Below, one piece after another: positions 3,506-33,877 of a stretch of DNA of 64,000 nucleotides. Both the position numbers and the translations under genes were made by a program. Position 1 is the first letter of the stretch, and every line of letters starts with the position of its first letter. Where the stretch lies: NCBI GenBank assembly GCA_964353745.1, contig CAYGWD010000001.1, forward strand, positions 3,440 to 67,439. Direction: 5' to 3'. The notes under the pieces were generated by a model. That model made no database searches, was not told the DNA's origin, and was given only the letters and a program-made list of their open reading frames with translations. Origin of the DNA: an uncultured archaeon (lineage in GTDB: Archaea > Aenigmatarchaeota > Aenigmatarchaeia > Aenigmatarchaeales > Aenigmatarchaeaceae).

Positions 3506-3728
3506 ATCAAATATATCAATAAATAGAAATTTAAATCTGTAATCTTATTACCCAGCAATAAGACTATCCTATAATTGTTCTCTATGTTTTTTAACTTTCT
3601 CAGATAATGTGTAGGCTTTCTTTGCTACCTTGTTCTTCTTCCTTAGAGATTTGATGCCAACCCAACCAATCAGAGCGTTTGTCTTACTGTTAGTGAAAAC
3701 CTTATTTTAATACCACCAATAATTAAGT

Positions 3729-4895
3729 ATGTCAATAGAAGTTTTATCATCCATATTTCTGGCAGCATCATTGTTCAGCCTTTTCTATGCCCTTAACTTT
3801 AAGAAACCTAGTCCACCAAAAGAACCAAAAGTCTTGCCAAAGGTCAGCGTCATGACATATGCCTACATCAACGACTGGGCAGGAAATGTGATAAAGAGGA
3901 AGATAGAAAACTTCCTTGATCTGAATTATCCGAAAGACAAGTATGAGATAATAGTTTATGACAACGGGTCGACTGGCAGAACTTTAAAGATATGCAAGGA
4001 ATACGCAAAGAAAGGTCTGATAAAGCATTACAGAAGCGACAAGGGTTACAACAGAAAGGGTTTGGTCCTTGACGACGTGATAAGGGATGTCGCCAAAGGA
4101 GATATAATCGCTCTTACTGATCCTGATGGAATATGCGAAAGGGACTGGCTGATGAAACATGTCTGCAACCTGATGAGCAGCAAAAAAATCGGAGCTTCCA
4201 TAGGAATGGTTTTCTGCGGCAACTGGTACAAAAACTTTTTCACTAGGATGAGAGCAATCGAGGATGTTTGGATGATTGATGTCGCATCCTTGGGAAGAAT
4301 AAGTGATGTGCAATTCATTTGCGGTGCCAACTATTCCTTTAAGAGAAAGGCATGGAAGGATGCCGGTGGTCATGGCAAAACACTTATCGAGGACGCAGAA
4401 ATAGCTAACAGGCTGCAGAAAGGCGGATGGAGGATAGCTGTTACTGATGCTGCCGTATGGCAAGAGGAAGTAGAGGACATATATGATTTTTTCATACAGA
4501 GATTGAGATGGTACAGCACTCCTATGGGTATTATCTTTCGCGAGAAGAAAACTATTTCAACAATCTTGTCTATCAGCCCTTGGTCGATACAGACTGTAAG
4601 TCTGTTCTCGCTGATTGCCTTTATTTTTGCAAATAACTTGCCATTGCGCATCTTCTCTCTGGCTCCATTTTTAATCTCAATCCTAGCTCTTGTCATAGGA
4701 CTGGTCAAAATGAAAGAGAAAAAGTTCATTCCGTTCATACTGCCCTACTTGACCTTTGATGCCGCAGTGTCTCTTATCTGTTTTATAGCGGCAAAAATTC
4801 TAAACATACTAAAGAAAGAGGTCAGATGGGAAAGGCTATCAAAGTGCAGATACTATCACAACGGAACCAAAATAAAAATTAATAGTGGCTATTAG
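3729..4895 (+). CDS. family-2 glycosyltransferase with processive-type QxxRW motif and C-terminal TM helices
   Basis: YDNGSTGRT (DxD-region), DPDG, and QRLRW followed by four hydrophobic helices. This resembles cellulose/chitin/hyaluronan-synthase-like GT2. Confidence 0.7.
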   Translation: MSIEVLSSIFLAASLFSLFYALNFKKPSPPKEPKVLPKVSVMTYAYINDWAGNVIKRKIENFLDLNYPKDKYEIIVYDNGSTGRTLKICKEYAKKGLIKHYRSDKGYNRKGLVLDDVIRDVAKGDIIALTDPDGICERDWLMKHVCNLMSSKKIGASIGMVFCGNWYKNFFTRMRAIEDVWMIDVASLGRISDVQFICGANYSFKRKAWKDAGGHGKTLIEDAEIANRLQKGGWRIAVTDAAVWQEEVEDIYDFFIQRLRWYSTPMGIIFREKKTISTILSISPWSIQTVSLFSLIAFIFANNLPLRIFSLAPFLISILALVIGLVKMKEKKFIPFILPYLTFDAAVSLICFIAAKILNILKKEVRWERLSKCRYYHNGTKIKINSGY

Positions 4896-7221: not shown

Positions 7222-8064
7222 GTGTTTAAATCTTTTAGTTTTTATTTAATTTTCATGAAAACGATTGAGCAGCTGATGAAAGATGGCTTGATAAAACAAT
7301 TTGAAAATAATTTTCCAGAGAGCCAATATTCAGCGGTTAGGAAAACATTTGAGGATGAGAAATTTGTAAACAAACACAACGGGCAGATTCCGCTGCTAGA
7401 GACGAGGCGACTCTGTCAGACTGGAAGCTCTAAGGATAGCATCAACCTGCTTGATTTGGGTTGCGGTACTGGCAATCAAATAGAATATTCTACATGGTTA
7501 GAAGGCGAATGGTCGACCGGACTTGATATTTCCAAAAGAATGTTAGAAAAAGCTGCTGATAAACTAAGGGGAACATGGGGTAAATGGAGATATAAGAAAG
7601 CAATTGCACTTGTCCATGCAAACATGAGTGATTCATTAAAAAATGATTTCTATGCACTCTTAGACAAACCTTATCTCGTAGATAGGCTAAGGCCAAAAAA
7701 GGCTGAGAAATTTAAAGCGATTAAAGATAGAAAAATTGCTGAAGTCAAAGAGATATTCAAAGGCAAATCAGGCAAGTACTTTGACATCATAACTTCCAAT
7801 CTTTCATTCCCAATTTATACGCCTCCCGAGAAGATAGAAGGTGTTGTTAAGTTTTACACTGAACGGTTGAAACCTGGCGGTTTGTGGCATATGTCGTATG
7901 CATTCGACCATGAAAATGTAGAAAAAGATAGCATATGGTTCAGCCACGACCCAGAAGCAATAAAAAGAGTCATGGAAGACTACAACATGAAATTGATAAA
8001 AGATAAAAGTAATTGCCTGCATTGTGAAGTATCTGTTGAACAGATTTATAGGTCAGATAATTAA
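7222..8064 (+). CDS. class I SAM-dependent methyltransferase
   Basis: Motif I LDLGCGTGNQ. Rossmann-type spacing. Confidence 0.55.
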   Translation: MFKSFSFYLIFMKTIEQLMKDGLIKQFENNFPESQYSAVRKTFEDEKFVNKHNGQIPLLETRRLCQTGSSKDSINLLDLGCGTGNQIEYSTWLEGEWSTGLDISKRMLEKAADKLRGTWGKWRYKKAIALVHANMSDSLKNDFYALLDKPYLVDRLRPKKAEKFKAIKDRKIAEVKEIFKGKSGKYFDIITSNLSFPIYTPPEKIEGVVKFYTERLKPGGLWHMSYAFDHENVEKDSIWFSHDPEAIKRVMEDYNMKLIKDKSNCLHCEVSVEQIYRSDN

Positions 8065-8092
8065 AAGGATTGCCTTCGCAAGAAAATTTTTT

Positions 8093-8356
8093 CTATACTA
8101 TGCAACTACCGCAGAAATTATAATAACCACCATAAACAGTTATAGATTTCTCATTCAGTTCCTTTACAGTGCTCCAACCGTAACGAATTGAATAGGCCAA
8201 CCTCGAAATACCATGCTTTGGAAAGCCTTTCTCTTCTAATTCTGTTTTTAATTTGTAGAACTCGCTCATTCCAGACTTGACATCATTCTCGCCTTTTGGG
8301 CGGCAAAGCTTATCATCAACTATTTTTAGTCTTTCACGAATTTCTTTTATCTTCAT
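8093..8356 (-). CDS. hypothetical protein (87 aa)
   Basis: ORF only. Confidence 0.25.
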   Translation of the reverse strand: MKIKEIRERLKIVDDKLCRPKGENDVKSGMSEFYKLKTELEEKGFPKHGISRLAYSIRYGWSTVKELNEKSITVYGGYYNFCGSCIV

Positions 8357-8466
8357 AAATATCCTATAAACGGGAAAAGATTTAAAATTATCTACCCGTA
8401 TGCAGTTAATTTTTTTGTCGAAGTACCTAATAAGTTTTTTAAACTCCGGGGAGATAGTCTTACTTA

Positions 8467-8829
8467 ATGCCTAGAAAAAAAAGTAATGTTGAATTGATTG
8501 AAAAGCTCCCGGTTATAAAAATTACAGCTGGAAACAAAATTAAAGAGGCTCCAACAGAGATAGCCTTTAGTTCAGAGAGTCTAGATTACGGAATAACGGG
8601 AGAGATTGACCTATTGCTGGACAGGGAAGGCTATGACTGCAAAAAGCTTAGGCTTACGAGTGTGGAAATTAAAACTCAGGTTGTAGGACATCGCGAAGGT
8701 GGAATATGCATATATGATGGAGAAAAAAGGAAGATTGATTATTCTTTAAAATATGATGGTCGGCTTGATGAGAAAACAAAAAATGGAATAGTGAATATCT
8801 TGAAGAGCGTTCCTAACGTAAAAATATAA
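8467..8829 (+). CDS. hypothetical protein (120 aa)
   Basis: ORF only. Confidence 0.3.
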   Translation: MPRKKSNVELIEKLPVIKITAGNKIKEAPTEIAFSSESLDYGITGEIDLLLDREGYDCKKLRLTSVEIKTQVVGHREGGICIYDGEKRKIDYSLKYDGRLDEKTKNGIVNILKSVPNVKI

Positions 8830-8852
8830 AGTTTAGTTTTCTTTCTAGTTTT

Positions 8853-9161
8853 ATGAGGAAGATAAAGGTTTTAAGCGATAGGTTTGTTGAAGTAATGACC
8901 TCTCATGAGATGATAAAAGCATTTGGAGAAAATGTAGCCTATGTAATGAGAAATGGAAATTTGTATGTGAGTGAGGAAAGTATTTTAGATGAAGTTAGAA
9001 AATTTGAAGAGCATTTATCACTCGAAGAGATAGCCGAAGATGTGTATAGAAAAGTAAGATTAGCTGAAGCTAACAGGAGGTATAAAACATCGCACACGCT
9101 CTGGGATGAGGTTAACAGAGCTAAATGCCCACTTAAATTGCTTGGCGAGTTCACCGAGTAA
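8853..9161 (+). CDS. hypothetical protein (102 aa)
   Basis: ORF only. Confidence 0.3.
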   Translation: MRKIKVLSDRFVEVMTSHEMIKAFGENVAYVMRNGNLYVSEESILDEVRKFEEHLSLEEIAEDVYRKVRLAEANRRYKTSHTLWDEVNRAKCPLKLLGEFTE

Positions 9162-10206
9162 TTGCCGCGTTCTTGACTGTTTCATACAGTTCTTTTGCTT
9201 TCTTATTCTTCTCAAAATATTCTCTGATTGGTTCTAACAGTTCATCCAAAGCCTCTATGGTTTCCTTCTTCAAGTCCAAGGGATGCAACTCTCCCTCTCT
9301 GTAAGTCTTTTCTAGTTCTTCATAGCTTTGAATTTCTAAATCTGTTTTGTCCTTCCTCTTGATGACTCTTGATTTGAACTTTCTAAGAATTATATATTTC
9401 CAAATCTCCAGTATTGGGTTACCTTCAGCCTCCTTAGGTTGGCAGAAGGCACCGTTTATTTTACTTCCTATCTGCTCCTTGTTATCGTGAATGAACACAG
9501 CGCTGCCAGCAATAGACTTGCTCATCTTGGCTTCCGCGGGTCCCATTCTCTGGCCGCCCTGCAAACCTATCAACAGATGATGCATGGCAGCAATCCTTAT
9601 GCTGTTATCAATCTTTGGCGCGACCTCTCTCGTTAATATCATCGCTTTGCGTTGGTCCATCCCAAGCTGTAAAATATCTGCCTCTATGTAGAATGGATCA
9701 TAAGCCTGCATCATGGGATACAGAACCTGAGCAACATACTGCATCTCTCCCTCCTCTCTGCCCATTATTGTTCCAGCTCTTATGGCCCTCTGAATCGTTG
9801 TCAGCTTTGAGATGTTTATGACGTTCTTCCAGTATTCAGAATCTTTGGCTAAATCTGATGCCCACAGAACCTTGACTTTCTTTGTGTCAACGCCGCAAGC
9901 CTTGTAGCCCTCGATAAAATACTCTCCAGTCTTTCTTATCAAATCCAGATTTCCCCCCATCTTGTTGTTTATCCATGCATACCAGTCTGCCAGTAGAATT
10001 ATGAAATTAACGTTAGCCTCGAACAAGTCATTAATCTTAATTTCTCTTAAAACTCCAGATCCTATGTGCATAAGTCCTGATGTTTCGAATCCATCGTAAG
10101 CTGTTATTTTTGTTTTCGTCTCTAACAGCTTTCTCAAATCCTCTACGGTAACGACCTCTTCTATCGGTGCTCTTGTTATTAAGTTTATTCTGGTCTCTAT
10201 GTCCAT
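9151..10206 (-). CDS. tyrS: tyrosyl-tRNA synthetase, archaeal type (TrpRS not fully excluded)
   Basis: Class I HIGH-like GFETSGLMHIGSG and KMSKS. IILLADWYAW, GNPILEIWKY and ELHPLDLK track blocks of Methanocaldococcus TyrRS. Confidence 0.75.
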   Translation of the reverse strand: MDIETRINLITRAPIEEVVTVEDLRKLLETKTKITAYDGFETSGLMHIGSGVLREIKINDLFEANVNFIILLADWYAWINNKMGGNLDLIRKTGEYFIEGYKACGVDTKKVKVLWASDLAKDSEYWKNVINISKLTTIQRAIRAGTIMGREEGEMQYVAQVLYPMMQAYDPFYIEADILQLGMDQRKAMILTREVAPKIDNSIRIAAMHHLLIGLQGGQRMGPAEAKMSKSIAGSAVFIHDNKEQIGSKINGAFCQPKEAEGNPILEIWKYIILRKFKSRVIKRKDKTDLEIQSYEELEKTYREGELHPLDLKKETIEALDELLEPIREYFEKNKKAKELYETVKNAAITR

Positions 10207-10255
10207 GTTAATGCCTAATCATATTAACTGAAAAGAATATTTAAATTCTATAATG

Positions 10256-10951
10256 TTAACTAATTACCGTTCCGCAATGCTTTCCTTCCACAGCTCTTAT
10301 AATTTCTTCTGGATCGCTACCATTTATGAAAACTGTTTTTATCTTGGCTTTTTTTATTAATCTAGTTGCTTTCAAGTCGAAGAATCTGTACTCGCCTGGA
10401 ACCTGAAGGTTTTTCATCATTATCTTTTCAAATCCGTTGTAACTTAGTTCATCGAACTTCTTTGCATTAGGGTCTTTTTTCGGATCATCAGAGTATACTC
10501 CATCAACGTTGGTAGCATTTATCAGCAAATTAGCTTTTATAGCTTGAGCAAATAGAGCTGAGACGTAATCAGTCGAATTACCTGGATGGATGCCGCCACA
10601 AACCAGAATCTTCTTTCCAAAGCTCTTCTTTAAGTCGACAACATTCCTTATAGATTGTTTGTAGGCATCATTCCCCAAAGCGGCTATGAGAACAAAGGCA
10701 TTCAAATGAGTGCCTTCGATTCCTATCCAGTCTAACAAATCATTGCTTGGTTTAAATTTTTTTGCAATGTCCCTGTATTGTCTGCTGGTTTTTCCTCCTC
10801 CGCAAACGACAACTAGCCTATGCCCCGCTCTCTTTAATCTTTTCAGGACTTCTGCATATTTTTTAAAATTTTCAGAATCAAGCTCTTTAGTCAGCAGAGA
10901 CCCACCAAGAGAAATTACAATTCTCATAGTTATTTTATTATGAATATTCAT
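10256..10951 (-). CDS. pyrH: uridylate (UMP) kinase, archaeal
   Basis: Amino-acid-kinase fold. RIVISLGGSLL and VVVCGGGKTSRQY. About 230 aa, typical of archaeal PyrH. Confidence 0.7.
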   Translation of the reverse strand: MNIHNKITMRIVISLGGSLLTKELDSENFKKYAEVLKRLKRAGHRLVVVCGGGKTSRQYRDIAKKFKPSNDLLDWIGIEGTHLNAFVLIAALGNDAYKQSIRNVVDLKKSFGKKILVCGGIHPGNSTDYVSALFAQAIKANLLINATNVDGVYSDDPKKDPNAKKFDELSYNGFEKIMMKNLQVPGEYRFFDLKATRLIKKAKIKTVFINGSDPEEIIRAVEGKHCGTVIS

Positions 10952-13794: not shown

Positions 13795-15054
13795 ATGAAC
13801 TTTGAAGAAGAATTTCAAACATATATTAAAAATTCTCCTAAAGTCAAGACAACTGTTCATTGGTGGGACCTATATAATGGGCATTATGTAGAATTGACTT
13901 CTGATATACAAAAGCAATTATTTCATGAAGCTATCAGCAAAAGTGGGTCTTACACTTCATTGGGCAAATCTCTAAATAAACCTAGAAAAATAATATCAAA
14001 TTGTTCAAAACTGATTCATAGACCGAATGTTTTATTACTGAAAAAATTATGCGATTATATTGATTTTTCTAGAAGTGAAATTGAAAGAAATATATTAAAT
14101 ATCGGCAAATCACATTTCAAACCAAATCTTCCATTTAAACTTCATAATGAAAGCGGCGTAGAGATAAGAGCTGCATTTCTTTCTGACGGTCATGTTCCTA
14201 AGAATCCGACTTCATGTCCTGTATATTCAGCATCAGAAATGGATCTTCAAGAAAGATTGATTGAACTTTGCAAGATTATATTTGGAGAATTTAACTGTGA
14301 AATAAAGTATGGGCATAAAGCATTAGAAACAAAATTCCCTGCTGTTATAGGCACCGCATTGGAACTTGGTGGCGTGCCTAGAGGAGATAAACGAATTGTC
14401 AATTGCTACGTACCTAAGGATATATTAACTGGAGAAGATAAATTAAAGCGGATATATCTAAGTAGAGTTTTCGACGATGAAGGAGATGTCTACTTTGATA
14501 AACATGGCAAAAGAGCTGTCAGATTAACTAGGACTGTTAGCATAAATAATTGTAAAGATACTTTTAAATTAAATCAAGGAAAATGGACACCATGCAATGT
14601 CTCTAATGCTCCAATAAGCAACTTGATAAGAGGCGAACAACTTCTCTTAAGAAGACTAAGAATTGATGCCAAAATCTACAATGAAGGCTTCTATAGATCT
14701 AGAAAAGATAAAATTACCACAAAATGGAGAATTCAAATCGGTCAGCAAGACAGTGTTAAAAGATTTGAATCAGAAATAGGCTTTGGTTTAGAAGCAAAAC
14801 GAGACAAGTTAAAGAAATTGGTAAATTCTTATGTAAAGAGAAAACTTCCTAACAATTGTGGGAAGAATCTTGTAATGGAAGTTGGTAGAAAATATTATCA
14901 GAGGAACGGGTTTTTTCGCTATAGAGATTTAAGCAAAGATTTTGTAAGCATGAAATTCTCCTCAAACTTCGCTGGAAGCCATTTGAAAAGCCTACTAAAT
15001 GAGGGTAAAATCAGAAAAATTGAACGTGGTAAATATGTTATTAATAGACGGTAG
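13795..15054 (+). CDS. hypothetical protein with two degenerate LAGLIDADG-like motifs and a C-terminal winged-helix-like tail
   Basis: Candidate motifs are AAFLSDGH (about aa 123) and LSRVFDDEGDV (about aa 212), roughly 90 aa apart. C-terminus is [20 protein letters not shown]. The ORF overlaps the rtcA start. Confidence 0.4.
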   Translation: MNFEEEFQTYIKNSPKVKTTVHWWDLYNGHYVELTSDIQKQLFHEAISKSGSYTSLGKSLNKPRKIISNCSKLIHRPNVLLLKKLCDYIDFSRSEIERNILNIGKSHFKPNLPFKLHNESGVEIRAAFLSDGHVPKNPTSCPVYSASEMDLQERLIELCKIIFGEFNCEIKYGHKALETKFPAVIGTALELGGVPRGDKRIVNCYVPKDILTGEDKLKRIYLSRVFDDEGDVYFDKHGKRAVRLTRTVSINNCKDTFKLNQGKWTPCNVSNAPISNLIRGEQLLLRRLRIDAKIYNEGFYRSRKDKITTKWRIQIGQQDSVKRFESEIGFGLEAKRDKLKKLVNSYVKRKLPNNCGKNLVMEVGRKYYQRNGFFRYRDLSKDFVSMKFSSNFAGSHLKSLLNEGKIRKIERGKYVINRR

Positions 15055-16033: not shown

Positions 16034-16641
16034 CTGCAAGCTCTTGTTTTCTTGGTTGTCTGAGAGCATCCGCTTGGGCTGCATTTCCTTGACCAATAGC
16101 AGGTTGTGCAGGTACCATCACTCTCACAGTTTGTTACCCACGAACCACAAGTGCAGACAGGTTGATTGTTGAAAGAACCATTGCTAACAGTACAGGTTAT
16201 GGGAAATGATGACTGATCGCCTAATTTTGCATCTTTGATTTCTAAATAGCAACTGCCAACGCTTTTTACTTTGAACGTTAAAGTTGCTATTGAAGAACTT
16301 CCTGTGAAACCGTTGTAAGGACTCTTTGCAGAGTATGCAGCCTCATAATAGCTATTAATATTATCTATCCATTTCATTGAATCAAACCATAAGTTTTTTG
16401 TATTCACCTTTGCACTAACCAAATTTAGTAAACTATTATTCCAATAAAGTTTAAAATCGAAACCATAGAGGTTAATTACGTTATCAACCTTTACATCAAC
16501 AGTGAAGTTGCTGCTTGGCGTAAGATTCGAATTAACAACGCTAGAAGGATTCACATAAATCGTTGCAGCAAAGGCCGTGTTAGCAAAAAGGGTAGACAGG
16601 AGAATTGAGATTAAAAATATTTTTGATTTCATCATGTGCAC
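16030..16641 (-). CDS. secreted cohesin-like domain protein with Cys-rich C-terminal tail
   Basis: Signal peptide with AFA cleavage-like site. Beta-sandwich pattern FTVDVKVDNV...ATLTFKVKSVGSCYLEIKDAKLGD...VSNGSF typical of type-I cohesins. C-terminal tail has 11 Cys. Confidence 0.55.
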   Translation of the reverse strand: MHMMKSKIFLISILLSTLFANTAFAATIYVNPSSVVNSNLTPSSNFTVDVKVDNVINLYGFDFKLYWNNSLLNLVSAKVNTKNLWFDSMKWIDNINSYYEAAYSAKSPYNGFTGSSSIATLTFKVKSVGSCYLEIKDAKLGDQSSFPITCTVSNGSFNNQPVCTCGSWVTNCESDGTCTTCYWSRKCSPSGCSQTTKKTRACS

Positions 16642-19600
16642 CTCTTGTTGAAGTTGTTAGACAATATTATGGCATCTAAAATATTTACTATTCCATCACC
16701 ATTTATATCGCCAGTTGAAGTCTTTTTGTTGAAGTTGTTAGACAATGTTATGGCATCTAAAATATTTACTATGCCATCACAATTTATATCGCCTAGACAG
16801 TTACAAGGCTTGGTGACTATGACTCTTACGCTCGCTGGGTCTACTCTTGATAGTGCATCTGTCCACCAATCATTGCCTGTGTTGCCATTGTTGCCTGCAT
16901 CCTGACCTAAATCCCTCTCGTGTATCCAGAACATTATTCTTTGATTTCCTGTTGTTGACCTATAAAATGAAGCTGGAGCTTGACAACTCACAACAATAGT
17001 TTCTCCCATATCTAATATACCATTTGGAAAGTCTTCACTCGCTACTGTACAACTAACTCCTGTTGGGCATTGACTTGGAGGTGCATGAACGCAACCATCG
17101 CTTCCACTGCCTCCGTCGTAAAAAGCATTTATTCTTCCTTTATTATCTCTTGTTCCCAACGGATTGTTATAATCTGAAACATTCCAAAATTCAACACCTA
17201 CATACCAATTATTTTGTGCATGCCATCCAGTATTAAGTATAGAAACGTTAACAACTATAAATGAAGTGTCCCAAATAGAAACATCACCACTAGTAACTCC
17301 ATTTACATTTACATCATTTATATAAGAATCATAAGTAACATCACATTGACATAGTCCTCCACAATGATAATCTCTCATTTGATTTGCACTATTGTATGCT
17401 TGAAGGAAAGGTGCCCGACAAGCTACTGCATAATTAGGCACTGCTGCAGTGTCAGGATAACCTCCGTCATAGCTTTCACATGTTTCTTTTCCACTAGCTC
17501 TTATTGCTAATATATTATTTATTGCATTTGCTCCATTAACTCTTCCGTGGCCTTCAATGCTAGTTCCATAACCGGCAGGTTCTGCACCTTCTATTAAAGC
17601 TTTTCTTATGTCACAAACACTTGCAGTAGGATATGCCTGGAACATTAACGCAACAGTTCCTGAAACATGAGGAGTTGCCATACTAGTTCCACTTTGTGCA
17701 TGGTATTTATCATTTCCACAAATATCAAACCAAGTTGCCTCTCTTCCTTGAGAAGATCTTGCAGCACAAATAAATTCTCCAGGAGCAGTTACATCAGGCT
17801 TTATAGTACCTTGAGGTGCTGGTCCTCTACTGCTGGAAAAGGATACAAAGTCTTTTGTTCCTGGAGTATTTTTTATGAAGATATTTCGATAAGTTTCACT
17901 GTCTTGAGTCCAAGTTCCAGTGCAACCGGTAGTATCTGGAGTTCCACATCTATAAGGCCATCCTATTCTATCTTCAATGTTACAATCTTTTGGTGCCCCA
18001 TTACATCCTACCCAAGCATAGCAATGTTGGATTTCATGGCCCCAACAACCGCTACACTCGCTTTGTGGTTTGTCCGGATAACAAGTCGTTGGACCGATTC
18101 CATCGTAAAATAATCCGCAACCACACCAACTACAACCTAACTGATTTTCACATCCGTTTCTATTAAGAGGATCAAAATCGTTACAAACTTTAGGAGTACC
18201 TGAACATGAAAAAGTATTCGTGCGTGAGTTGTACCATGGTTCAGGATCACCAGGACAACAACCCCAACCGCCTTCGTTCTGATGAGAACGCAATAAAATT
18301 TCAAAACCTACATATGGTCCTGCAGCGAAATTTTGAGAAGCTAAATTCCAAAAACCATCACCATTACCTCTACCATTTGGATCCCACCAAACATCTGTTG
18401 CAGAATAACAAGGTCTGTCTTTGTGTTCACTTTCTAAATTAAAATTAATGTTAGCAGGCCATGAGCTTGGTTGTAATGTTAAATGAACACCTGTTTCCTC
18501 AGTTAAAGGAAAATCGTCTATGCTATCCAAATCTGTTATAATAGCGCCTGCATTATTGGTAAATTGACTTACAACTTCAGAATTAACATTTATATTTAAT
18601 TTATTTCTATAAGGAATTTTATCATTTAAAAACATTAATGAATTATAAACATTGTTTGGAAAATCTTTTTTTACTGTTGAACCTACTGCAATAACTCCAT
18701 CTATACATGCAGGATATAGTGTAGCAACTGCTGGGCCATCATTTCCTTGAGCAGCTACAAACACTACTCCATGACCTAGAGCACTAATGATAGCATTGTA
18801 CCTTCTTAGATCATCTCCAAACAAATTTAAACCTCTACATATATTTGCATCTGAAGGTCTACCAGAACTGTAGCTAATCACGTTAACATGCTGTGCTATT
18901 GCTTGCTCTATAGCATCTGCAATCCAAAGTGAATTTGTTGTACCATCGTCCTTATAAACCTTCCAAATATACAAATCAGCTTTTGGAGCAACTCCTTTGT
19001 ATTTTCCGCCAGACTCAGAACCGTTACCTGCAGCTATTCCTGCACAATGTGTTCCATGAGCGCTTTTATCTGTATATGAAGTATGTCTGTCGGTTGTTGT
19101 GTCGTTCCAAAATTTAATTCTTCCTGCAAAATCTTTATGATTGTCTATACCTGTGTCTATCATTGCTATTCTTACACCTTCGCCAGTTAAATCACTCCCT
19201 AAATAATTATAAGGTAATCCCATAGAACTTACAGAATCGTTTAAAGCAGGTTTATCCATTACCACATCTCTAACATAAAATCCAAGTCCTCTTAAAGTTT
19301 TTGTTAAACTTTCATAGTTTTCATTTGGTACTTCAATAAGAGATGTAGCATAATCAGGATCATTAACGTAAACTGATGCATTATATTCTTTTACAATTTC
19401 GTCTAAAGGTAAGCTTGAAATTTCTTCATATTCTACACTTAATGATTTTGAAAGAGTTTGCGATAAAACTTTTGGTGATGAATAAACACTATTCCATTTT
19501 TCAGGTTTGAAAAGAAATTGTGAATAATTTTCCAATGGTGGCAATATTTCTATATAAGAATTATTTGTTTCTATTTTTTCTGCCCCTAACATTGAAAAAG

Positions 19601-19658
19601 CTGGAGAGATAAATAAAGGTAACAAAAATATTATTAAAAAAATAATTTTTATTTCCAT
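16632..19658 (-). CDS. S8 subtilisin-like serine protease with large Cys-rich insertion and C-terminal tandem dockerin
   Basis: Signal peptide. Catalytic motifs D (IAMIDTGID), H (HGTHCAG), N (AAQGNDGP) and S (GTSMATPHVSG). About 280 aa inserted between the N and S motifs. C-terminus is DINCDGIVNILDAITLSNNF...DINGDGIVNILDAIILSNNF. Confidence 0.85.
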   Translation of the reverse strand: MEIKIIFLIIFLLPLFISPAFSMLGAEKIETNNSYIEILPPLENYSQFLFKPEKWNSVYSSPKVLSQTLSKSLSVEYEEISSLPLDEIVKEYNASVYVNDPDYATSLIEVPNENYESLTKTLRGLGFYVRDVVMDKPALNDSVSSMGLPYNYLGSDLTGEGVRIAMIDTGIDNHKDFAGRIKFWNDTTTDRHTSYTDKSAHGTHCAGIAAGNGSESGGKYKGVAPKADLYIWKVYKDDGTTNSLWIADAIEQAIAQHVNVISYSSGRPSDANICRGLNLFGDDLRRYNAIISALGHGVVFVAAQGNDGPAVATLYPACIDGVIAVGSTVKKDFPNNVYNSLMFLNDKIPYRNKLNINVNSEVVSQFTNNAGAIITDLDSIDDFPLTEETGVHLTLQPSSWPANINFNLESEHKDRPCYSATDVWWDPNGRGNGDGFWNLASQNFAAGPYVGFEILLRSHQNEGGWGCCPGDPEPWYNSRTNTFSCSGTPKVCNDFDPLNRNGCENQLGCSWCGCGLFYDGIGPTTCYPDKPQSECSGCWGHEIQHCYAWVGCNGAPKDCNIEDRIGWPYRCGTPDTTGCTGTWTQDSETYRNIFIKNTPGTKDFVSFSSSRGPAPQGTIKPDVTAPGEFICAARSSQGREATWFDICGNDKYHAQSGTSMATPHVSGTVALMFQAYPTASVCDIRKALIEGAEPAGYGTSIEGHGRVNGANAINNILAIRASGKETCESYDGGYPDTAAVPNYAVACRAPFLQAYNSANQMRDYHCGGLCQCDVTYDSYINDVNVNGVTSGDVSIWDTSFIVVNVSILNTGWHAQNNWYVGVEFWNVSDYNNPLGTRDNKGRINAFYDGGSGSDGCVHAPPSQCPTGVSCTVASEDFPNGILDMGETIVVSCQAPASFYRSTTGNQRIMFWIHERDLGQDAGNNGNTGNDWWTDALSRVDPASVRVIVTKPCNCLGDINCDGIVNILDAITLSNNFNKKTSTGDINGDGIVNILDAIILSNNFNKRCT
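16635..16800 (-). other. dockerin type-I duplicated Ca-binding segments (domain of the S8 protease)
   Basis: Two 69-nt DNA copies, about 95 percent identical, at an 81-nt period, encoding DINxDGIVNILDAIxLSNNFNK twice. Confidence 0.75.
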
Positions 19659-20982: not shown

Positions 20983-23748
20983 TCATATATCTGTAAATTT
21001 CTCTTCTTCAACATTATTGGTCTTTCTTGCCAAGCTTTCCAAATAAGAGGTCTTCTTATGATTGTTAGTTTTCTTAGAAATTTTTCCTAGGTAATAGCTT
21101 ATCTTGGTTCTTTGCAAGAAAATGAAGACACAGGCGATTATTGCAACCACTATAACTATCACAGTGGTTAAAATGGATGTTTGAACTGGCGCTGTAACAG
21201 TTGTCTCTCCTCTATTCACGGTACAGCTCTGCGACTCGCTAGGCTTACCGGCTGTCGTGCCGCAGCTGTTAGCATCAGTGCATGTCCTAGTCTGTTGACT
21301 GTTTGCACAGGCAGACCAATCCCCGCATGTCCAAGACTCTGTGCATGCAGCAGGCGTTTCAGGGATTATGGGTGCGCCGCCTGTGGTTCCTATGACGAAC
21401 ACAGACAGGCCTGGTGAACTTACTTTGTAAAATACTTCTCTATCGTCTTCAGATACTTTAACTGCGCTCAAATCATTCCATTTATTGTTTGACCACCTGT
21501 AAAGAGTAATGTTAGAAGCGCTAATATTGTTATTCGTCAGCCATGTCTTGTTGACGGCAAAAGAAATATTAACTACTCTAATGTCAGAATCTGTAAAGTT
21601 TAGTTTATCCACGCTAATGTAATTATAGACCTTTCCGTCGATATCATAAGGAACTGATGATGGCAAATTTGCTAATTTCAAGGTCATTATCTTTATGTTT
21701 GCCACATTGTTTACAACTGTAATATTCAATCCTCTTATTGCCACGTCCTGATATCTTGCTATTTTTGCAATCAGCTTTCCGTCTGTCGTGAGATAGTTTG
21801 CTGTGATGTTTGCTTTACCGACTGCAAGGTTGATGTAAGTAACCATGCCTGTTGATGTAATGCCGCTAATTGAAGACCCGCTTGTGGTAGTTGTGGGTGT
21901 AGCCGCAGCAGTTACTACTATGACCACTGTATATATGCTTGAATTAGCAGACCAATTTTCTCCTGCTGTGGAATTTAACATATAGGTATAAGTACTCGCC
22001 GTTGACTGTGTATAAGCAGAAAAACTTGTGGTACCATTAGCGAGGCTAACAAAACTTGTATCTCTCCAAAAACTATAATTGACATCCGCATCACCACCAT
22101 TACTTTCTAATGGTGTTATGCTTGCAGTGTTTGGTAATGTAACATTAGAACCTGATATTGAACCTGTAGTTGCACCCTTGCTTATGTTCCACCATAGGAA
22201 AACAACAGAACTAGCTGAATAATTTTGATCAGCAATAACGGATGCGTTGAAATAATTATTATAAGCACCCCATTGCCTTATATCATTTGCTGTTGATGAA
22301 GCACTAACTAACGATGTTCCGTTTCTCCATATCGTAACGTTTGCTCCTGTTATGTTAGCTACAGCTGTGGCATTAATTGTAGAATTAGGATAGGTTGATG
22401 TTATGTTGTTTATGGTTCCATTTAAGTATAGTATTACCGAAGTTGCTGCTAGATTAATAGTAGCATTCAAATTAGTAGAAGAAGCTGAGTAGTTTTCACC
22501 AGTATCATAAACTGCAGTAAAGTTATGGAGTCCTCCTCCCCACAAATTTGTATTATTACAAGAAGTTGCTCCAGAACATATGCTTAAACTATTTCTATAA
22601 ATATTAATAGCTAATCCTGTTACATTTATAACTGCTGTGATATTGAGAGTAGAATTGGGATAAGTTGATGTCCAGTTTGCTTGTGTTCCATTTATAAATA
22701 GATTTATTGAAGTTGGTCCTTTAGACACATTAAACCATAGGAAAACGTTAACGCTGTCCGTATAATTATCATTACCAAGAACCCGGGCAGTGAAATTATT
22801 GTTAGAAGCATTCCATTGCGAGATGTTCCATGCAGTGCCAGTTGCATTACTTATTAAAGTTCCACTTCTCCACAATTGAACATAAAGTCCAGAAACATTA
22901 GAGACTGCCGTGACGTTTATCGTGGAATTGGGATAGGTTGATGTTATATTCGCTACTGTATCATTTAAATACAAAGTGGCCAAAGTCGCCGCTTGTGCTA
23001 TATAAATTATGACAGGACTTGATGCGTTCATATTGCCCCTTGTATCATTGGCATAGGATTTCCATTGCCATATTCCTGCAGGCAGAACTGCTGAATAATT
23101 ATAAATTCCTCCACCATAAGTGGGAGTCGTCGAAGCATTGGAGTTAGACCAGTTCCCTTCTATCAAAACTGTTGATATGTCCACATTGTCTGCCCAAGTG
23201 ATATTGAATCGAGACGGCGTTGATGAATAGATTAAAGGTGTAACATTTGATTGTCCAGACCATGTTGGATACGTAGTGTCATTAACTGTCACAGAAACAT
23301 TAGTAGAATTATAAACTCCAGCTGTATCTAAGGTTGAAACATTAAAATTATATGCAACGCTTGCATTCGAAGGTACAATTACATTTATAGAAAAGTATTG
23401 CGTGTCGCCTCCGCTGACAACAAAGCCTGTTTCTGTTGTATTAACCCAAGAGACTAGCTGGCCAGCACTTGAAAAAATCGTACCGCTTGCCGTTGTTGTA
23501 TTGCTAGCGGCTATAAAACCAAAACCGGCTGGCAGGGTTATATTAACTTGAGTTATATTCCCAGTTGCATTGATATTGACGATGGTAAAGTTTAGAATTT
23601 GATTGGTTGTGCTTGCATTTACATTAGTCGGGTTTACGTTAGAAGTAAAGGGTATGCTAAACACCGGCAAAACAAAAATCAAAATCAGTGCAATTGCTAA
23701 GAGTACTGCAAAAGATAATCCTATTTTAACAAACCCTTTCCTATTCAA
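20983..23748 (-). CDS. large membrane-anchored surface (S-layer-like) glycoprotein
   Basis: Signal/TM at N-terminus. Dozens of N-x-S/T sequons. Three tandem roughly 90-aa repeats (STYPNSTxNxTAV...WRxG). A Cys-rich module, then a C-terminal TM helix plus basic cytoplasmic tail. Confidence 0.65.
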   Translation of the reverse strand: MNRKGFVKIGLSFAVLLAIALILIFVLPVFSIPFTSNVNPTNVNASTTNQILNFTIVNINATGNITQVNITLPAGFGFIAASNTTTASGTIFSSAGQLVSWVNTTETGFVVSGGDTQYFSINVIVPSNASVAYNFNVSTLDTAGVYNSTNVSVTVNDTTYPTWSGQSNVTPLIYSSTPSRFNITWADNVDISTVLIEGNWSNSNASTTPTYGGGIYNYSAVLPAGIWQWKSYANDTRGNMNASSPVIIYIAQAATLATLYLNDTVANITSTYPNSTINVTAVSNVSGLYVQLWRSGTLISNATGTAWNISQWNASNNNFTARVLGNDNYTDSVNVFLWFNVSKGPTSINLFINGTQANWTSTYPNSTLNITAVINVTGLAINIYRNSLSICSGATSCNNTNLWGGGLHNFTAVYDTGENYSASSTNLNATINLAATSVILYLNGTINNITSTYPNSTINATAVANITGANVTIWRNGTSLVSASSTANDIRQWGAYNNYFNASVIADQNYSASSVVFLWWNISKGATTGSISGSNVTLPNTASITPLESNGGDADVNYSFWRDTSFVSLANGTTSFSAYTQSTASTYTYMLNSTAGENWSANSSIYTVVIVVTAAATPTTTTSGSSISGITSTGMVTYINLAVGKANITANYLTTDGKLIAKIARYQDVAIRGLNITVVNNVANIKIMTLKLANLPSSVPYDIDGKVYNYISVDKLNFTDSDIRVVNISFAVNKTWLTNNNISASNITLYRWSNNKWNDLSAVKVSEDDREVFYKVSSPGLSVFVIGTTGGAPIIPETPAACTESWTCGDWSACANSQQTRTCTDANSCGTTAGKPSESQSCTVNRGETTVTAPVQTSILTTVIVIVVAIIACVFIFLQRTKISYYLGKISKKTNNHKKTSYLESLARKTNNVEEEKFTDI

Positions 23749-31441: not shown

Positions 31442-33877
31442 TTATGAACTGTAATGAATTATTCTTTTTATATTTTCCAAGGAAAGATTTCTAGGTCTTA
31501 GATTTCTTAATAAATAGCTGGGTCTGAAATAAAATTCTCTATAAGCTTTTCTTTTCATTTCTAGCAATAGCTCTGGCGTCAGTTCTCCTAATTTAAACTT
31601 TTTAGGTTTATCATAATGTCCTGAGAACTTAACATTCCAATCTTCTAAAAGTTCACCTTCTCTCTTAATAAGATCATAAACTCTTGTGCCTACAAAAGGT
31701 GTTAATGTAGTAAACTGAGCAAATGTTGGGTCTAATTCTTTAGCAAAGTCTATTGTCTCTTGCATAGTTTCTCTATTTTCACCTGGAAGACCTAAAACAA
31801 AGAAGGCGGTTGACTCTATGTCAAGTTTTTTACAAAGTTCAAATGTTTTCTTAACTTTATTGAGGTCTAATCTCTTGTCAATCGTTTTCATTATGCGTTT
31901 TGAACCTGTTTCAACACCAAATGCTACTCTTATGCATCCTGCTTTTTTCATCTTCTTAAGAGTTTGATAGTTTACAAATTCTGCTCTTAAACCATTGGGA
32001 AAGAAATGCGGAAGATTTAATTTCTTTTTAAGAATAAGGTCATAAATTTTATTTACTCTTTCTAACGATAGGTTAAAAATATCATCATATATTGCAATTT
32101 CTTCTACATTTATGTCATTAATAAGCCATTCCCATTCTTTAACAACGTTTTCAGGACTTCTTGCTCTCCACATATATCCAAACAATCCTTTGAAACAATA
32201 AATACAATTGAAAGGACAACCACGACTATTTCCACTCCAAACAGATTTTCCTTTTCTTCTCACATAAATTATATGATTAGGAACTTCACAACAATAGATT
32301 TTACCAAGATAATTCTCTTTAGATGTATGTTTACGCCTGCCATGCTTATCAATATAATTAATTACTGGCATATTTTGTTTTTTATTAAAAATTATACGAT
32401 AGCAAGGGAATTGAGATTTTATTGTTTTGCCTTTAATTTTTCCTATAGAATTGTTTAGTTTATTTTTAATATTCCCACTCCAACCAACTTTTAGAAGTAT
32501 CTCTTGAATGTCGTCAATCAATTTTTTAGAAGTAGTTATATACTCAATTTCTCCAATTTTTGATATATATCCATCGCCTAAAACAAGTGCATCTAATAAA
32601 ATTTTAAGGTAATTAGTTGAAAGTTGTTTTATTTCTTTTGGAACGAATTTATCTTCAGCATGACCAAACTGTTTTAGATAGCAGCATAATTGTTTGTTTG
32701 AAATAAAAAATCCTTCTATAGGATGCTTATAGTATTTATAACCCAATTTTTTAATACAGTCTTCCATTTTTTTATAGGATTCTGTTCCGACTTTCTGCGA
32801 AATTTTAACAATCCAAGAATTATTACTTTTTTTATGTTGAACTGAACCTTCACTAAGATAATAACCTAGAAATTCTAACCATAAGCCCATTGGTATTATT
32901 TTTCCCTCTGATTTTCTAATTTTATTTATTGGGTTAAATTCATGGAGAACTTCTGGTAATATAAAATAGTCTTTTTTGTCTCCCAACCATATGGCATCTT
33001 TTTTCATCCGAAAATCATTCTTATTCATTAAAATAGAGACATCTATTAGTGTAAATTTATTTGGGCGTTTTGACCTTAATCTAACATATAGTTTGTGATT
33101 TGGCGTAACTAATAAATTGATTTGTTTACATTCTATTTTACACATATCACCATTATAGTCATAAGACATTAATTTTGATGGTTTTTGATATTCTAAATTA
33201 TGATTTTCAGGATTGAGAGTAGCTATCTCATTTTCATAGGTTAAATCTTTAAAAAGTTTCCATCCATCTTCTGTTAGAACTTCTGTTTGGTCGTCATAGC
33301 ATGTCATAATTCCAGCGCCACGTTTATGAGGATGCGGTACAAACCATGTATATTTTTCTAATGGTGGAAATAAATGATAAGCAGGGAAAGGTAAAGAATC
33401 TAAATCTTTTATAAGTGGTCTTGGTTTAGTAACTATGATTCTGTTTCCATATTTGAATGCAATACCTTTTACATTTTTTAGATTTTTTTTGTTTTCTATA
33501 TTTTTAATTAATTCAGATGTTGTAATTTCTCCTTCACCTATGACAACATAATCTATATCTGCTATTTCTAATAATTCATGGGATTGACATGTTGGATGTG
33601 GACCTCCCATCATAATCTTTATATCTGGATTATATTGTCTTGCTTTTTTTACTAATTTCAATGAGCCTGCTATGGTTAACGTCGTTGCTGTTATACCTAA
33701 AACTTCATTTTCCTTAACTGATTTTTTGAATTTTTCATCCGACTCAACATTCAAATCAACAACGGAAACTTCATGTCCATCTCTTTCTAAAACAGATGCT
33801 ATATAACCCAAACCTATATTTATAGTCTTAACTGGTTCAAAACAAGAATAATTGGGACTTACTAACAGAACTTTCAT
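31442..33877 (-). CDS. B12-binding-domain radical SAM enzyme (paralogue 2) interrupted by an intein
   Basis: The 811-aa ORF has extein ...GAGIMT | intein | SRGCPFNCIYC. The spliced product would be 453 aa with a junction IMTSRGC matching the paralogues. Confidence 0.75.
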   Translation of the reverse strand: MKVLLVSPNYSCFEPVKTINIGLGYIASVLERDGHEVSVVDLNVESDEKFKKSVKENEVLGITATTLTIAGSLKLVKKARQYNPDIKIMMGGPHPTCQSHELLEIADIDYVVIGEGEITTSELIKNIENKKNLKNVKGIAFKYGNRIIVTKPRPLIKDLDSLPFPAYHLFPPLEKYTWFVPHPHKRGAGIMTCYDDQTEVLTEDGWKLFKDLTYENEIATLNPENHNLEYQKPSKLMSYDYNGDMCKIECKQINLLVTPNHKLYVRLRSKRPNKFTLIDVSILMNKNDFRMKKDAIWLGDKKDYFILPEVLHEFNPINKIRKSEGKIIPMGLWLEFLGYYLSEGSVQHKKSNNSWIVKISQKVGTESYKKMEDCIKKLGYKYYKHPIEGFFISNKQLCCYLKQFGHAEDKFVPKEIKQLSTNYLKILLDALVLGDGYISKIGEIEYITTSKKLIDDIQEILLKVGWSGNIKNKLNNSIGKIKGKTIKSQFPCYRIIFNKKQNMPVINYIDKHGRRKHTSKENYLGKIYCCEVPNHIIYVRRKGKSVWSGNSRGCPFNCIYCFKGLFGYMWRARSPENVVKEWEWLINDINVEEIAIYDDIFNLSLERVNKIYDLILKKKLNLPHFFPNGLRAEFVNYQTLKKMKKAGCIRVAFGVETGSKRIMKTIDKRLDLNKVKKTFELCKKLDIESTAFFVLGLPGENRETMQETIDFAKELDPTFAQFTTLTPFVGTRVYDLIKREGELLEDWNVKFSGHYDKPKKFKLGELTPELLLEMKRKAYREFYFRPSYLLRNLRPRNLSLENIKRIIHYSS
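32228..33301 (-). other. intein (358 aa) with LAGLIDADG homing-endonuclease domain
   Basis: Block A CYDDQTEVLTEDGWK. Block B VTPNHKLYV. LAGLIDADG-like LGYYLSEGSV and LLDALVLGDGYI. It ends VWSGN followed by the +1 Ser. Confidence 0.7.

What the first reader, a model, noticed from the sequence alone, without database searches (positions are those of the whole stretch)
32228..33301. LAGLIDADG intein inserted precisely at the radical-SAM cysteine motif of a B12-rSAM paralogue
The 31442-33877 ORF is 811 aa, whereas its paralogues are 466-509 aa. The extra 358 aa starts with Cys (CYDDQTEVLTEDGWK, intein block A) and contains block B TPNHKLYV. It carries two LAGLIDADG-type motifs (LGYYLSEGSV, LLDALVLGDGYI) and ends ...VWSGN followed by the +1 Ser. 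Removing it recreates IMT-SRGCPFNCIYC, identical in register to ITSRGCPFRCGFC and the other paralogue motifs. Inteins are mostly known in replication and repair proteins. One sitting in the active-site loop of a glycan-pathway rSAM enzyme is unusual. It means the enzyme is only active after splicing. The penultimate residue is Gly rather than the usual His.
Basis: seen in the sequence. Interest (0 to 1): 0.75.

Follow-up and report, generated by a model that had tools for sequence, protein, structure and literature searches.

The report
Homing-endonuclease intein splitting a radical-SAM enzyme
One of seven cobalamin-type radical-SAM genes in an archaeal glycosylation gene cluster is interrupted, just before its iron-sulfur cysteine motif, by a genuine self-splicing intein carrying a homing endonuclease; this is a clean example of a known kind of selfish element in an uncommon host gene, not a new kind of system.

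Summary
ORF 31442-33877 (-) encodes 811 aa. Residues 193-550 (window 32228-33301) are an exact 358-aa insertion between invariant Thr and Ser of ...GIMT|SRGCPFNCIYC.

Three full-length orthologues at 78-80% identity lack the insert, one of them in a syntenic cluster. The insert belongs to a large intein family. Its members lie end to end in unrelated host proteins and in at least 588 viral contigs.

Across 152 members, Cys1, block-B His, the C-terminal Asn and a Ser/Cys/Thr at +1 are essentially invariant. The penultimate residue is Gly or Ser and never His, so that feature is a family trait and not a defect.

An AlphaFold model (pLDDT 95) matches full-length LAGLIDADG inteins best (TliVMA, PI-SceI, PI-PfuI). 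The endonuclease acidic residues are conserved.

At least eleven other proteins or loci, most of them confirmed cobalamin-type radical-SAM proteins, carry the same family at the same site, including two paralogues on one contig. A second, unrelated intein family sits before the third Cys of the CX3CX2C motif in other radical-SAM proteins.

An intein in a radical-SAM enzyme is already known (P. abyssi MoaA). Verdict: a real intein, a new member of a known kind. Splicing and homing are inferred, not shown.

The parts
31442..33877 (-). Precursor ORF of 811 aa (94.3 kDa): B12-binding domain, then intein, then radical-SAM core
   Evidence: Pfam B12-binding covers residues 18-123, Radical_SAM 551-712 and LAGLIDADG_3 427-476.
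33302..33877 (-). N-extein, 192 aa (B12-binding domain plus linker), ending ...KRGAGIMT. Thr192 is invariant in the host family.
32228..33301 (-). Intein, 358 aa (42.0 kDa): a Hint splicing domain with an inserted LAGLIDADG homing endonuclease
33254..33301 (-). Intein block A, CYDDQTEVLTEDGWKL. Cys1 is the presumed first nucleophile.
   Evidence: Among 152 family members: C1 in 151, and T6, L9 and T10 in all 152.
33083..33124 (-). Intein block B, QINLLVTPNHKLYV (Thr66-x-x-His69)
   Evidence: T66 in 145 of 152, H69 in 152 of 152.
32843..32881 (-). First LAGLIDADG helix, WLEFLGYYLSEGS, with catalytic Glu151
   Evidence: helix 138-151; 138 Glu and 8 Asp of 152
32567..32608 (-). Second LAGLIDADG helix, LKILLDALVLGDGY, with catalytic Asp243
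   Evidence: helix 229-243; Asp in 144 of 152
32228..32311 (-). Intein blocks F and G, YLGKIYCCEVPNHIIYVRRKGKSVWSGN. Cys337 occupies position F:4. Also here: the block-F His343, invariant Trp355, penultimate Gly357 and terminal Asn358.
31442..32227 (-). C-extein, 261 aa plus stop codon: the radical-SAM core, starting at the +1 Ser
32195..32227 (-). SRGCPFNCIYC: the +1 Ser followed by the CX3CX2C iron-sulfur cluster motif (Cys at +4, +8 and +11)
   Evidence: (S, R, G and the three Cys are invariant)

Best explanation
The 358-aa segment is a class 1 intein that carries a LAGLIDADG homing endonuclease. It sits in a cobalamin-type (class B) radical-SAM gene of an N-glycosylation-type cluster. The organism is an uncultured archaeon; seryl-tRNA synthetase similarity suggests an Aenigmatarchaeota-like DPANN lineage.

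Proposed mechanism, all steps inferred. The gene is translated as a 94-kDa precursor. Cys1 undergoes an N-S acyl shift, assisted by Thr66 and His69. The N-extein is then transferred to the +1 Ser. Asn358 cyclises, probably helped by the block-F His343 in place of the missing penultimate His. An O-N shift restores a normal Thr-Ser peptide bond. The products are a 52-kDa enzyme reading ...GIMTSRGCPFNCIYC... and a free 42-kDa intein.

The free intein would cut intein-less alleles at the DNA that encodes T|SRGCP and copy itself in by repair (homing). The target encodes the most conserved stretch of the host family. This would explain why the same site is occupied in diverged radical-SAM proteins and in two paralogues on one contig.

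The insert separates strand beta-1 from the cluster loop, so the precursor is probably inactive until spliced.

Shown here: the exact insertion, empty alleles, family homology, conservation of catalytic residues, the fold, and recurrence of the site. Inferred: splicing, endonuclease activity, homing, and inactivity of the precursor.
For: - **Exact insertion.** The insert is a single 358-column gap between invariant Thr and Ser.
- **Empty alleles.** Orthologues P0121, P0122 and P0123 (453-455 aa, 78-80% identity) lack the insert. The syntenic locus L001 has the empty site ...ATAATGACA|AGCAGAGGGTGCCC.
- **Family homology.** 307 homologues at 35-45% identity cover the whole insert. They lie in dCTP deaminase, MCM, ThyA, ThyX, methyltransferases, glycosyltransferases, peptidase C1, RuvC and others.
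- **Junctions.** In 90 of 90 parsed homologues the insert starts with Cys, ends with Asn, and is followed by Ser (50), Cys (31) or Thr (9).
- **Conserved residues (n=152).** C1, H69, W355 and N358 are invariant or nearly so. E151, D243 and K271 are kept in about 91-96% of members.
- **Fold.** The AlphaFold model has pLDDT 95.1 and pTM 0.93. The best Foldseek PDB matches are the TliVMA intein (E = 2.8e-15), PI-SceI, PI-TkoII, PI-PfuI and the PhoVMA intein, followed by I-DmoI and mini-inteins.
- **Same site elsewhere.** The same family at the same site is seen in P0242, P0243, P0244, P0246, P0247, P0248, P0251, P0252, P0312 and loci L170 and L216. P0242 and P0246 are 4.4 kb apart on one contig.
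- **One lineage.** Nine of the ten same-site inteins group in one neighbour-joining clade of ten.
- **Penultimate Gly is compatible with splicing.** A phage intein with a penultimate Gly splices completely, and a block-F His can take over the role of the missing His (PMC5050341).
- **Position in the host fold.** The insertion point lies right after strand 189-192, at the start of the cluster loop, in the model of orthologue P0121.
Against: - There is no experimental evidence for splicing or cleavage.
- The curated Hint profiles score below their cut-offs, and a PDB sequence search finds nothing.
- The canonical penultimate His is absent.
- No closely related occupied allele was found. The nearest same-site inteins are only 44-51% identical, so recent homing cannot be shown.
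- The other six B12 radical-SAM paralogues in the window are uninvaded even though they share the S/T-RGC motif.
Confidence: 0.9

Rival explanations
1. It is a decayed intein. The insert derives from an intein but no longer splices, or splices poorly. The gene would then be a pseudogene, tolerated because six uninterrupted paralogues sit nearby.
For: The penultimate His is missing. The window holds six uninterrupted B12 radical-SAM paralogues that could mask loss of this one. Nothing has been tested experimentally.
Against: The reading frame is intact over 811 codons. Every catalytic position matches the family consensus: C1, T66, H69, C337, H343, W355, N358 and the +1 Ser. The Gly/Ser penultimate residue is found in 148 of 152 family members, which sit in essential genes such as terminase, MCM and RNA polymerase. 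A Gly-penultimate phage intein splices completely (PMC5050341).
Confidence: 0.06
2. Splicing is intact but the endonuclease is inactive. The element would be fixed and immobile, kept only because imprecise loss would destroy the enzyme.
For: Many inteins carry degenerate endonucleases (established knowledge). No recently transferred copy was found: the nearest same-site intein is 51% identical. Paralogues in the same window are uninvaded.
Against: Glu151, Asp243 and Lys271 agree with the family consensus. The endonuclease domain is modelled with high confidence. The distribution is sporadic: the three closest full-length orthologues are empty, while another contig has two occupied paralogues.
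Confidence: 0.25
3. It is a class 3 intein, in which the block-F cysteine rather than Cys1 starts the splicing reaction.
For: Position F:4 is Cys in 126 of 152 family members, and it is Cys337 here.
Against: The defining Trp-Cys-Thr triplet is absent. Position B:12 is Leu, Met or Ile, and G:5 is Cys or Ser. Cys1 is present in 151 of 152 members. Cys is the second most common residue at F:4 in inteins generally (PMC4031507).
Confidence: 0.03
4. The 358 aa are a native accessory domain of this radical-SAM subfamily.
For: None was found beyond the in-frame continuity of the ORF.
Against: Orthologues at 78-80% identity lack the segment exactly. The same segment occurs in dozens of unrelated protein families and in viruses.
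Confidence: 0.01

Closest known systems
Full-length LAGLIDADG inteins with solved structures: TliVMA and PhoVMA inteins (7qsu, 7qst), PI-SceI (1vde), PI-PfuI (1dq3), PI-TkoII (2cw7)
   Same: The two-part architecture is the same: a Hint splicing domain interrupted by a double-motif LAGLIDADG endonuclease. These are the best structural matches. Cys1, block-B TxxH, the terminal Asn and a +1 nucleophile are shared.
   Different: Aligned sequence identity is only 9-18%. The host genes are a V-ATPase, ribonucleotide reductase and DNA polymerase. The penultimate residue here is Gly, not His, and F:4 is Cys, not Asp.
Pyrococcus abyssi MoaA intein (PMC10663303, PMC3922620; citing Callahan et al. 2011)
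   Same: It is an intein in an oxygen-labile enzyme. From my own knowledge, MoaA is a radical-SAM enzyme, so a radical-SAM host is not unprecedented.
   Different: The host subfamily differs. In Pab MoaA a Cys-3 to Cys1 disulfide traps the precursor. Here the N-extein has no Cys near the junction (residues -7 to -1 are RGAGIMT). The Cys-3 geometry resembles the second site I found (CxxxCxx|C). I could not verify the MoaA insertion point because the paper is not held.
Mycobacteriophage Bethlehem gp51 (RDF) intein and other phage class 1 inteins lacking the penultimate His (PMC5050341)
   Same: It has a penultimate Gly and is phage-associated. It splices fully, and changing Gly to His slows splicing. 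This supports the view that the Gly here is functional.
   Different: The host gene and intein lineage differ. I made no sequence comparison with it.
Inteins clustered at ATPase P-loops of replication proteins (PMC4760082)
   Same: The principle is the same: inteins sit in the most conserved cofactor-binding motif of the host. Related but non-orthologous hosts carry inteins in the same functional domain, at independently acquired and mostly different insertion points.
   Different: The motif here is the radical-SAM iron-sulfur loop, not a P-loop. The main text of that survey does not mention radical-SAM hosts.

Membership tests
Intein (class 1) | In-frame insertion in a conserved host protein whose homologues lack it, with precise boundaries | tested here: met
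   a single 358-column gap, and orthologues at 78-80% identity without it.
Intein (class 1) | Cys or Ser at position 1 (block A) | tested here: met
   (Cys1). Cys in 151 of 152 family members.
Intein (class 1) | Block B Thr-x-x-His | tested here: met
   T66 in 145 of 152, H69 in 152 of 152.
Intein (class 1) | C-terminal Asn followed by Cys, Ser or Thr at +1 | tested here: met
   N358 in 152 of 152. The +1 residue is Ser here. In 90 homologues it is Ser 50, Cys 31, Thr 9.
Intein (class 1) | Penultimate His (G:6); common but not obligatory | tested here: not met
   Gly 134, Ser 14, Cys 3, His 0 among the counts printed for 152 members. Splicing without this His is documented (PMC5050341; references in PMC4031507).
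Intein (class 1) | Hint (hedgehog/intein) fold | tested here: met
   model pLDDT 95.1, with matches to whole inteins, mini-inteins and the hedgehog autoprocessing domain.
Intein (class 1) | Score above the curated cut-off of intein profiles (Pfam Intein_splicing, TIGR01445) | tested here: not met
   17.6-18.5 bits against 35.8, and 19.8 against 24.5. The family is too divergent for these models.
Intein (class 1) | Protein splicing activity | not testable with these tools
   Requires expression and detection of the 52-kDa and 42-kDa products.
LAGLIDADG homing endonuclease (double-motif, intein-borne) | Two LAGLIDADG helices, each ending in a catalytic acidic residue | tested here: met
   (PF14528, 41-44 bits against a cut-off of 22.5), 44, 51: E151 and D243.
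LAGLIDADG homing endonuclease (double-motif, intein-borne) | Site-specific cleavage of the intein-less allele, and homing | not testable with these tools
   There is only indirect support: a sporadic distribution and a recurring site.
Class 3 intein | Trp(B:12)-Cys(F:4)-Thr(G:5) triplet | tested here: not met
   B:12 is Leu, Met or Ile. F:4 is Cys. G:5 is Cys or Ser.
Class B (cobalamin-dependent) radical-SAM enzyme (the host) | N-terminal B12-binding domain plus a radical-SAM core with CX3CX2C | tested here: met
   both Pfam domains score above their cut-offs, and the motif is restored on removing the insert. The nearest solved relatives are a radical-SAM core domain protein (9ccb), AprD4, TokK, CysS and TsrM. 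No NCBIfam equivalog cut-off is reached, so the substrate is unknown.

The most novel reading that the evidence does not exclude
The radical-SAM cluster loop may be a general intein hot spot, and the inteins there may act as conditional switches. Two unrelated intein families occupy two points ten residues apart (x|[S/T]RGC and CxxxCxx|C) across several radical-SAM subfamilies, and the second family also occurs in NifU and SufB. The family studied here is cysteine-rich at its active site: Cys1, Cys at F:4, and often Cys at G:5. It abuts the three cluster-ligand cysteines. Splicing could therefore be gated by redox state or iron-sulfur availability, so that the oxygen-labile enzyme matures only under reducing conditions, as proposed for the P. 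abyssi MoaA intein.
Probability: 0.12. Interest if true: 0.6.

Novelty: new member of a known kind. Interest (0 to 1): 0.35.

Why it matters
The finding adds a well-supported intein insertion site in cobalamin-dependent radical-SAM enzymes. The library I searched (25 papers mention both 'intein' and 'radical SAM', none of the abstracts or passages I read describes this) appears to know only the MoaA case.

It shows that a large, mostly virus-borne intein family with a ...W-x-G-N C-terminus also colonises archaeal glycan-biosynthesis genes, and that it can occupy several paralogues in one genome.

There are two practical points. Genome annotation will misjudge the length and domains of such genes. 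Anyone expressing this enzyme should remove the intein or allow for splicing.

The recurrence of two intein sites in the iron-sulfur loop parallels the known clustering of inteins at P-loops. It gives a testable system for redox-conditional splicing.

Tried and rejected
- A sequence search of the PDB with the intein gave only a chance hit.
- A scan of species-representative genomes with the full ORF found nothing. Repeating it with the window's seryl-tRNA synthetase gave the taxonomic hint.
- A viral scan with the single intein sequence found nothing because the tool picked unconserved peptides. The alignment-based scan worked.
Only 2 of 120 matches were real, so prevalence cannot be estimated.
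- Rfam found no RNA genes in the window.
- The supplementary tables of the Novikova survey and the Callahan 2011 paper are not held. I could not check whether a B12 radical-SAM intein is already listed, or where exactly the MoaA intein sits.
- I searched with the second-site intein hoping to reach Pyrococcus MoaA by name. It returned SplB-like radical-SAM, NifU and SufB hosts but no named MoaA.
- I compared DNA at the site among the window's paralogues (10-15 of 24 core bases identical). This suggests why they are uninvaded but does not prove it.
- I rejected the class 3 mechanism, the native-domain reading and the bacterial intein-like domain reading. A bacterial intein-like domain would lack the endonuclease, the conserved +1 nucleophile and the conserved-site insertion.
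Full report
**1. Observation**

The ORF lies on the minus strand at 31442..33877 and encodes 811 aa. Window 32228-33301 (-) translates to 358 aa, starting CYDDQTEVLTEDGWK and ending VWSGN. The N-extein is 192 aa and ends ...KRGAGIMT. The C-extein is 261 aa and starts SRGCPFNCIYC.

Pfam places a B12-binding domain at residues 18-123, a Radical_SAM domain at 551-712 and LAGLIDADG_3 at 427-476. The window holds six further uninterrupted B12-binding radical-SAM paralogues of 466-509 aa and one SPASM radical-SAM protein. Around them are glycosyltransferases, methyltransferases, sugar epimerases/dehydratases, a PMT_2 protein, a flippase-like protein and an STT3 (AglB-type) oligosaccharyltransferase.

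**2. The segment is an insertion, not a native domain**

A search with the spliced extein returned 4665 relatives at E <= 1e-20. The 120 best listed are all 331-500 aa. The closest are P0121, P0122 and P0123 (453-455 aa, 78-80% identity, full coverage).

In the alignment the extra segment is one uninterrupted 358-column gap between ...GIMT and SRGC.... Thr, Ser, Arg, Gly and the three Cys around the junction are invariant in 42 host-family members.

P0121 lies on a 49-kb contig (L001). Its neighbours mirror the window: a B12 radical-SAM gene, GT1, GT2, STT3 and a flippase. Its DNA shows the empty site ...GGCATAATGACA|AGCAGAGGGTGCCCTTTC. The window has ...GGAATTATGACA|[intein]|AGTCGTGGTTGTCCTTTC.

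**3. The segment is an intein of a large mobile family**

A search with the 358 aa alone found 307 proteins. The 120 best listed have E-values between 1e-48 and 1e-75 and typically cover 100% of the query at 35-45% identity. The segment is embedded in unrelated hosts: dCTP deaminase, MCM, thymidylate synthases ThyA and ThyX, Gp37-type proteins, DNA and small-molecule methyltransferases, glycosyltransferases, peptidase C1, RuvC, PAPS reductase, QueC, sugar epimerases and others.

Both boundaries could be parsed by pattern in 90 of these proteins. In all 90 the segment starts with Cys and ends with Asn, and the next residue is Ser (50), Cys (31) or Thr (9). The flanking host sequence is unrelated from case to case.

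In an alignment of 152 family members the following are invariant or nearly so:
- Splicing residues: C1 (151), T6, L9, T10, T66 (145), H69 (152), W355 (152) and N358 (152).
- Endonuclease residues: E151 (138 Glu plus 8 Asp), D243 (144) and K271 (139).
- Penultimate residue: Gly 134, Ser 14, Cys 3, and no His among the counts printed.
- Block F position 4: Cys 126, Asp 19.

A profile built from this alignment matches the window segment end to end (E = 5e-133) and matches nowhere else in the window.

The curated Hint profiles are too distant. Pfam Intein_splicing and TIGR01445 score below their cut-offs, and a PDB sequence search finds nothing.

Structure fills that gap. An AlphaFold model built from the family alignment has mean pLDDT 95.1 and pTM 0.93. 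Its best Foldseek matches in the PDB are whole LAGLIDADG inteins: TliVMA (E = 2.8e-15), PI-SceI, PI-TkoII, PI-PfuI and PhoVMA. These are followed by the free-standing LAGLIDADG enzyme I-DmoI, then by mini-inteins and the hedgehog autoprocessing domain.

**4. The odd features are family traits and are known variants**

Published work shows that a mycobacteriophage intein with a penultimate Gly splices completely, that changing Gly to His slows it, and that a block-F His can substitute for the missing His (PMC5050341). His343 is present here.

Cys at F:4 is the second most common residue at that position in inteins (PMC4031507). The class 3 signature (Trp at B:12, Cys at F:4, Thr at G:5) is absent, because B:12 is Leu/Met/Ile and G:5 is Cys/Ser. 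With Cys1 invariant, a class 1 mechanism is the economical reading.

**5. The site recurs**

An exhaustive HMMER search with the whole 811-aa protein found the identical protein (P0241). It also found radical-SAM proteins that align in one colinear stretch through extein, intein and extein.

Their sequences show the same family at the same point:
- P0242 ...VMT|C..N|SRGCPYHC
- P0243 ...MIT|..|SRGCPYKC
- P0244 ...IWS|..|SRGCPARC
- P0246 ...TIT|..|SRGCPYNC
- P0247 ...MIS|..|SRGCPNNC
- P0248 ...FLT|..|SRGCPFTC
- P0251 ...IAT|..|SRGCPYAC
- P0252 ...IWA|..|SRGCPYRC
- P0312 ...TFT|..|SRGCPMGC

Two more examples turned up in metagenome contigs, L170 and L216. Not every host was confirmed as a B12-type enzyme: P0312 shows only the cysteine motif and no host Pfam domain, and L170 and L216 were identified from the junction sequence alone.

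P0242 and P0246 are two paralogues 4.4 kb apart on one 113-kb contig, again in an STT3/glycosyltransferase cluster. P0251 sits in a contig that looks viral.

The same-site inteins are 40-51% identical to one another and include the window intein's three nearest relatives. In a neighbour-joining tree, nine of the ten group in a clade of ten (no bootstrap). This suggests a site-specific lineage.

P0282, which has a CX3CX2C motif but no Pfam radical-SAM hit, carries the family at the equivalent point with Thr at +1 (GFL|..|TRGCSRQCDFC). P0310 has a similar junction.

The family is very common in viruses. At least 588 IMG/VR loci match it over its full length, in genes that, judged from the residues flanking the junctions, look like terminase, portal, MCM-like, RNA polymerase, methyltransferase, anaerobic ribonucleotide reductase and peptidase genes. 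None of the best 80 is at an SRGC site.

**6. A second site in the same loop**

P0354 and P0376 are B12 radical-SAM proteins. They carry a different 472-aa LAGLIDADG intein between the second and third cysteine of the motif (SRGCPYSCIF|C...N|CADH), so the +1 nucleophile is itself a cluster ligand.

Relatives of that intein sit at the same CxxxCxx|C point in SplB-like radical-SAM proteins (P0386, P0388, P0390) and in another radical-SAM protein (P0394). They also occur in NifU-like and SufB proteins.

The radical-SAM cluster loop is therefore hit by two unrelated intein lineages.

**7. Where the insert sits in the enzyme**

A model of the intein-less orthologue P0121 (pLDDT 91.4) places the junction (T194|S195) directly after strand 189-192, at the start of the loop that carries C198, C202 and C205. 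This agrees with the established radical-SAM architecture, in which the cluster loop follows beta-1.

A 42-kDa domain at this point very probably prevents cluster assembly until it is removed. This is an inference.

**8. Organism and host function**

The window's seryl-tRNA synthetase is 83% identical to that of an uncultured archaeon and 80% identical to that of a Candidatus Aenigmatarchaeota genome bin. The next hits are Bathyarchaeia at about 60-74%. Overall G+C is 35.6%, the intein is 27.6% and the exteins are about 31%.

The host enzyme reaches no NCBIfam equivalog cut-off. Its nearest solved relatives are a radical-SAM core domain protein (9ccb), AprD4, TokK, CysS, TsrM and OxsB. Its substrate is unknown. 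A role in modifying a glycan or lipid carrier is inferred from the gene cluster only.

**9. Comparison with what is known**

Inteins are strongly biased towards replication, repair and nucleotide-metabolism proteins, and they cluster in cofactor-binding motifs (PMC4760082). The main text of that survey does not mention radical-SAM hosts.

An intein in MoaA of Pyrococcus abyssi is described as a redox trap, formed by a Cys-3 to Cys1 disulfide (PMC10663303, PMC3922620). That MoaA is a radical-SAM enzyme is my own knowledge. Its Cys-3/Cys1 geometry would fit the second site described in section 6, but I could not verify this.

I found no paper describing an intein in a B12-dependent radical-SAM enzyme. 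The library I searched is incomplete.

**10. Verdict**

This is a real, well-formed intein and very probably a functional one. It is a new member, and probably a previously unlisted insertion site, of a well-known kind of element.

Its sense of rarity is somewhat overstated, and the Gly is not an anomaly within this family.

Interest is moderate. The most novel reading still open is a redox-gated or iron-sulfur-gated switch, and more generally a hot spot for inteins in the radical-SAM loop.

Noticed in passing
P0354 and P0376; P0386, P0388, P0390, P0394: A second, unrelated LAGLIDADG intein (about 472 aa in P0354 and P0376, with a helix-turn-helix region in several members) is inserted between the second and third Cys of the radical-SAM CX3CX2C motif, so the +1 Cys is a cluster ligand. 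It occurs in B12-type, SplB-like and other radical-SAM proteins. Relatives sit in NifU-like and SufB proteins.
   Followed up: partly
L002 10001-12517 and 16921-19260 (JGI 3300033153, contig Ga0366824_1000591): Two B12 radical-SAM paralogues 4.4 kb apart on one contig both carry the same-family intein at the same T|SRGCP site (the inteins are 51% identical). They lie in an STT3/glycosyltransferase cluster that also holds a 400-aa LAGLIDADG_3 ORF at 2932-4134.
   Followed up: partly
window 13795-15054 (+): A free-standing 419-aa ORF with two LAGLIDADG-type motifs (IRAAFLSDGHV, YLSRVFDDEGDV; Pfam LAGLIDADG_3 27.8 bits). It has no Hint blocks. It lies between a beta-CASP RNase gene and RtcA and overlaps the start of RtcA by 56 bases.
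   Followed up: no
window about 23900-54700: A cluster of roughly 30 kb of glycosylation-type genes with seven B12-binding radical-SAM paralogues, one SPASM radical-SAM protein, several GT2/GT1 glycosyltransferases, methyltransferases, four sugar epimerase/dehydratase genes, a UbiA prenyltransferase, a PMT_2 protein, an STT3 oligosaccharyltransferase and a flippase-like gene. That is an unusual density of class B radical-SAM enzymes for a glycan pathway.
   Followed up: partly
L004 (GCA_006243145.1, VAPA010692874.1) 8001-10499 and flanks: The same-site intein-bearing radical-SAM gene P0251 lies in a contig with many small unannotated ORFs plus AAA_24, ERCC4 and AAA_25 genes. The contig looks viral and also carries glycosyltransferase, aminotransferase and further radical-SAM genes.
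   Followed up: no
L086-L165 (IMG/VR): The intein family (C-Y-D..T-E-[VI]-L-T ... W-x-G-N) is abundant in viral contigs, with at least 588 loci. Judged from the residues flanking the junctions, the hosts look like terminase, portal, MCM-like, RNA polymerase, DNA methyltransferase, anaerobic ribonucleotide reductase and peptidase C1 genes. L129 carries two copies.
   Followed up: partly
window 16632-19658 (-) and 20983-23748 (-): A 1008-aa subtilase (Peptidase_S8) with a C-terminal dockerin domain lies next to a 921-aa ORF that has no Pfam match.
   Followed up: no
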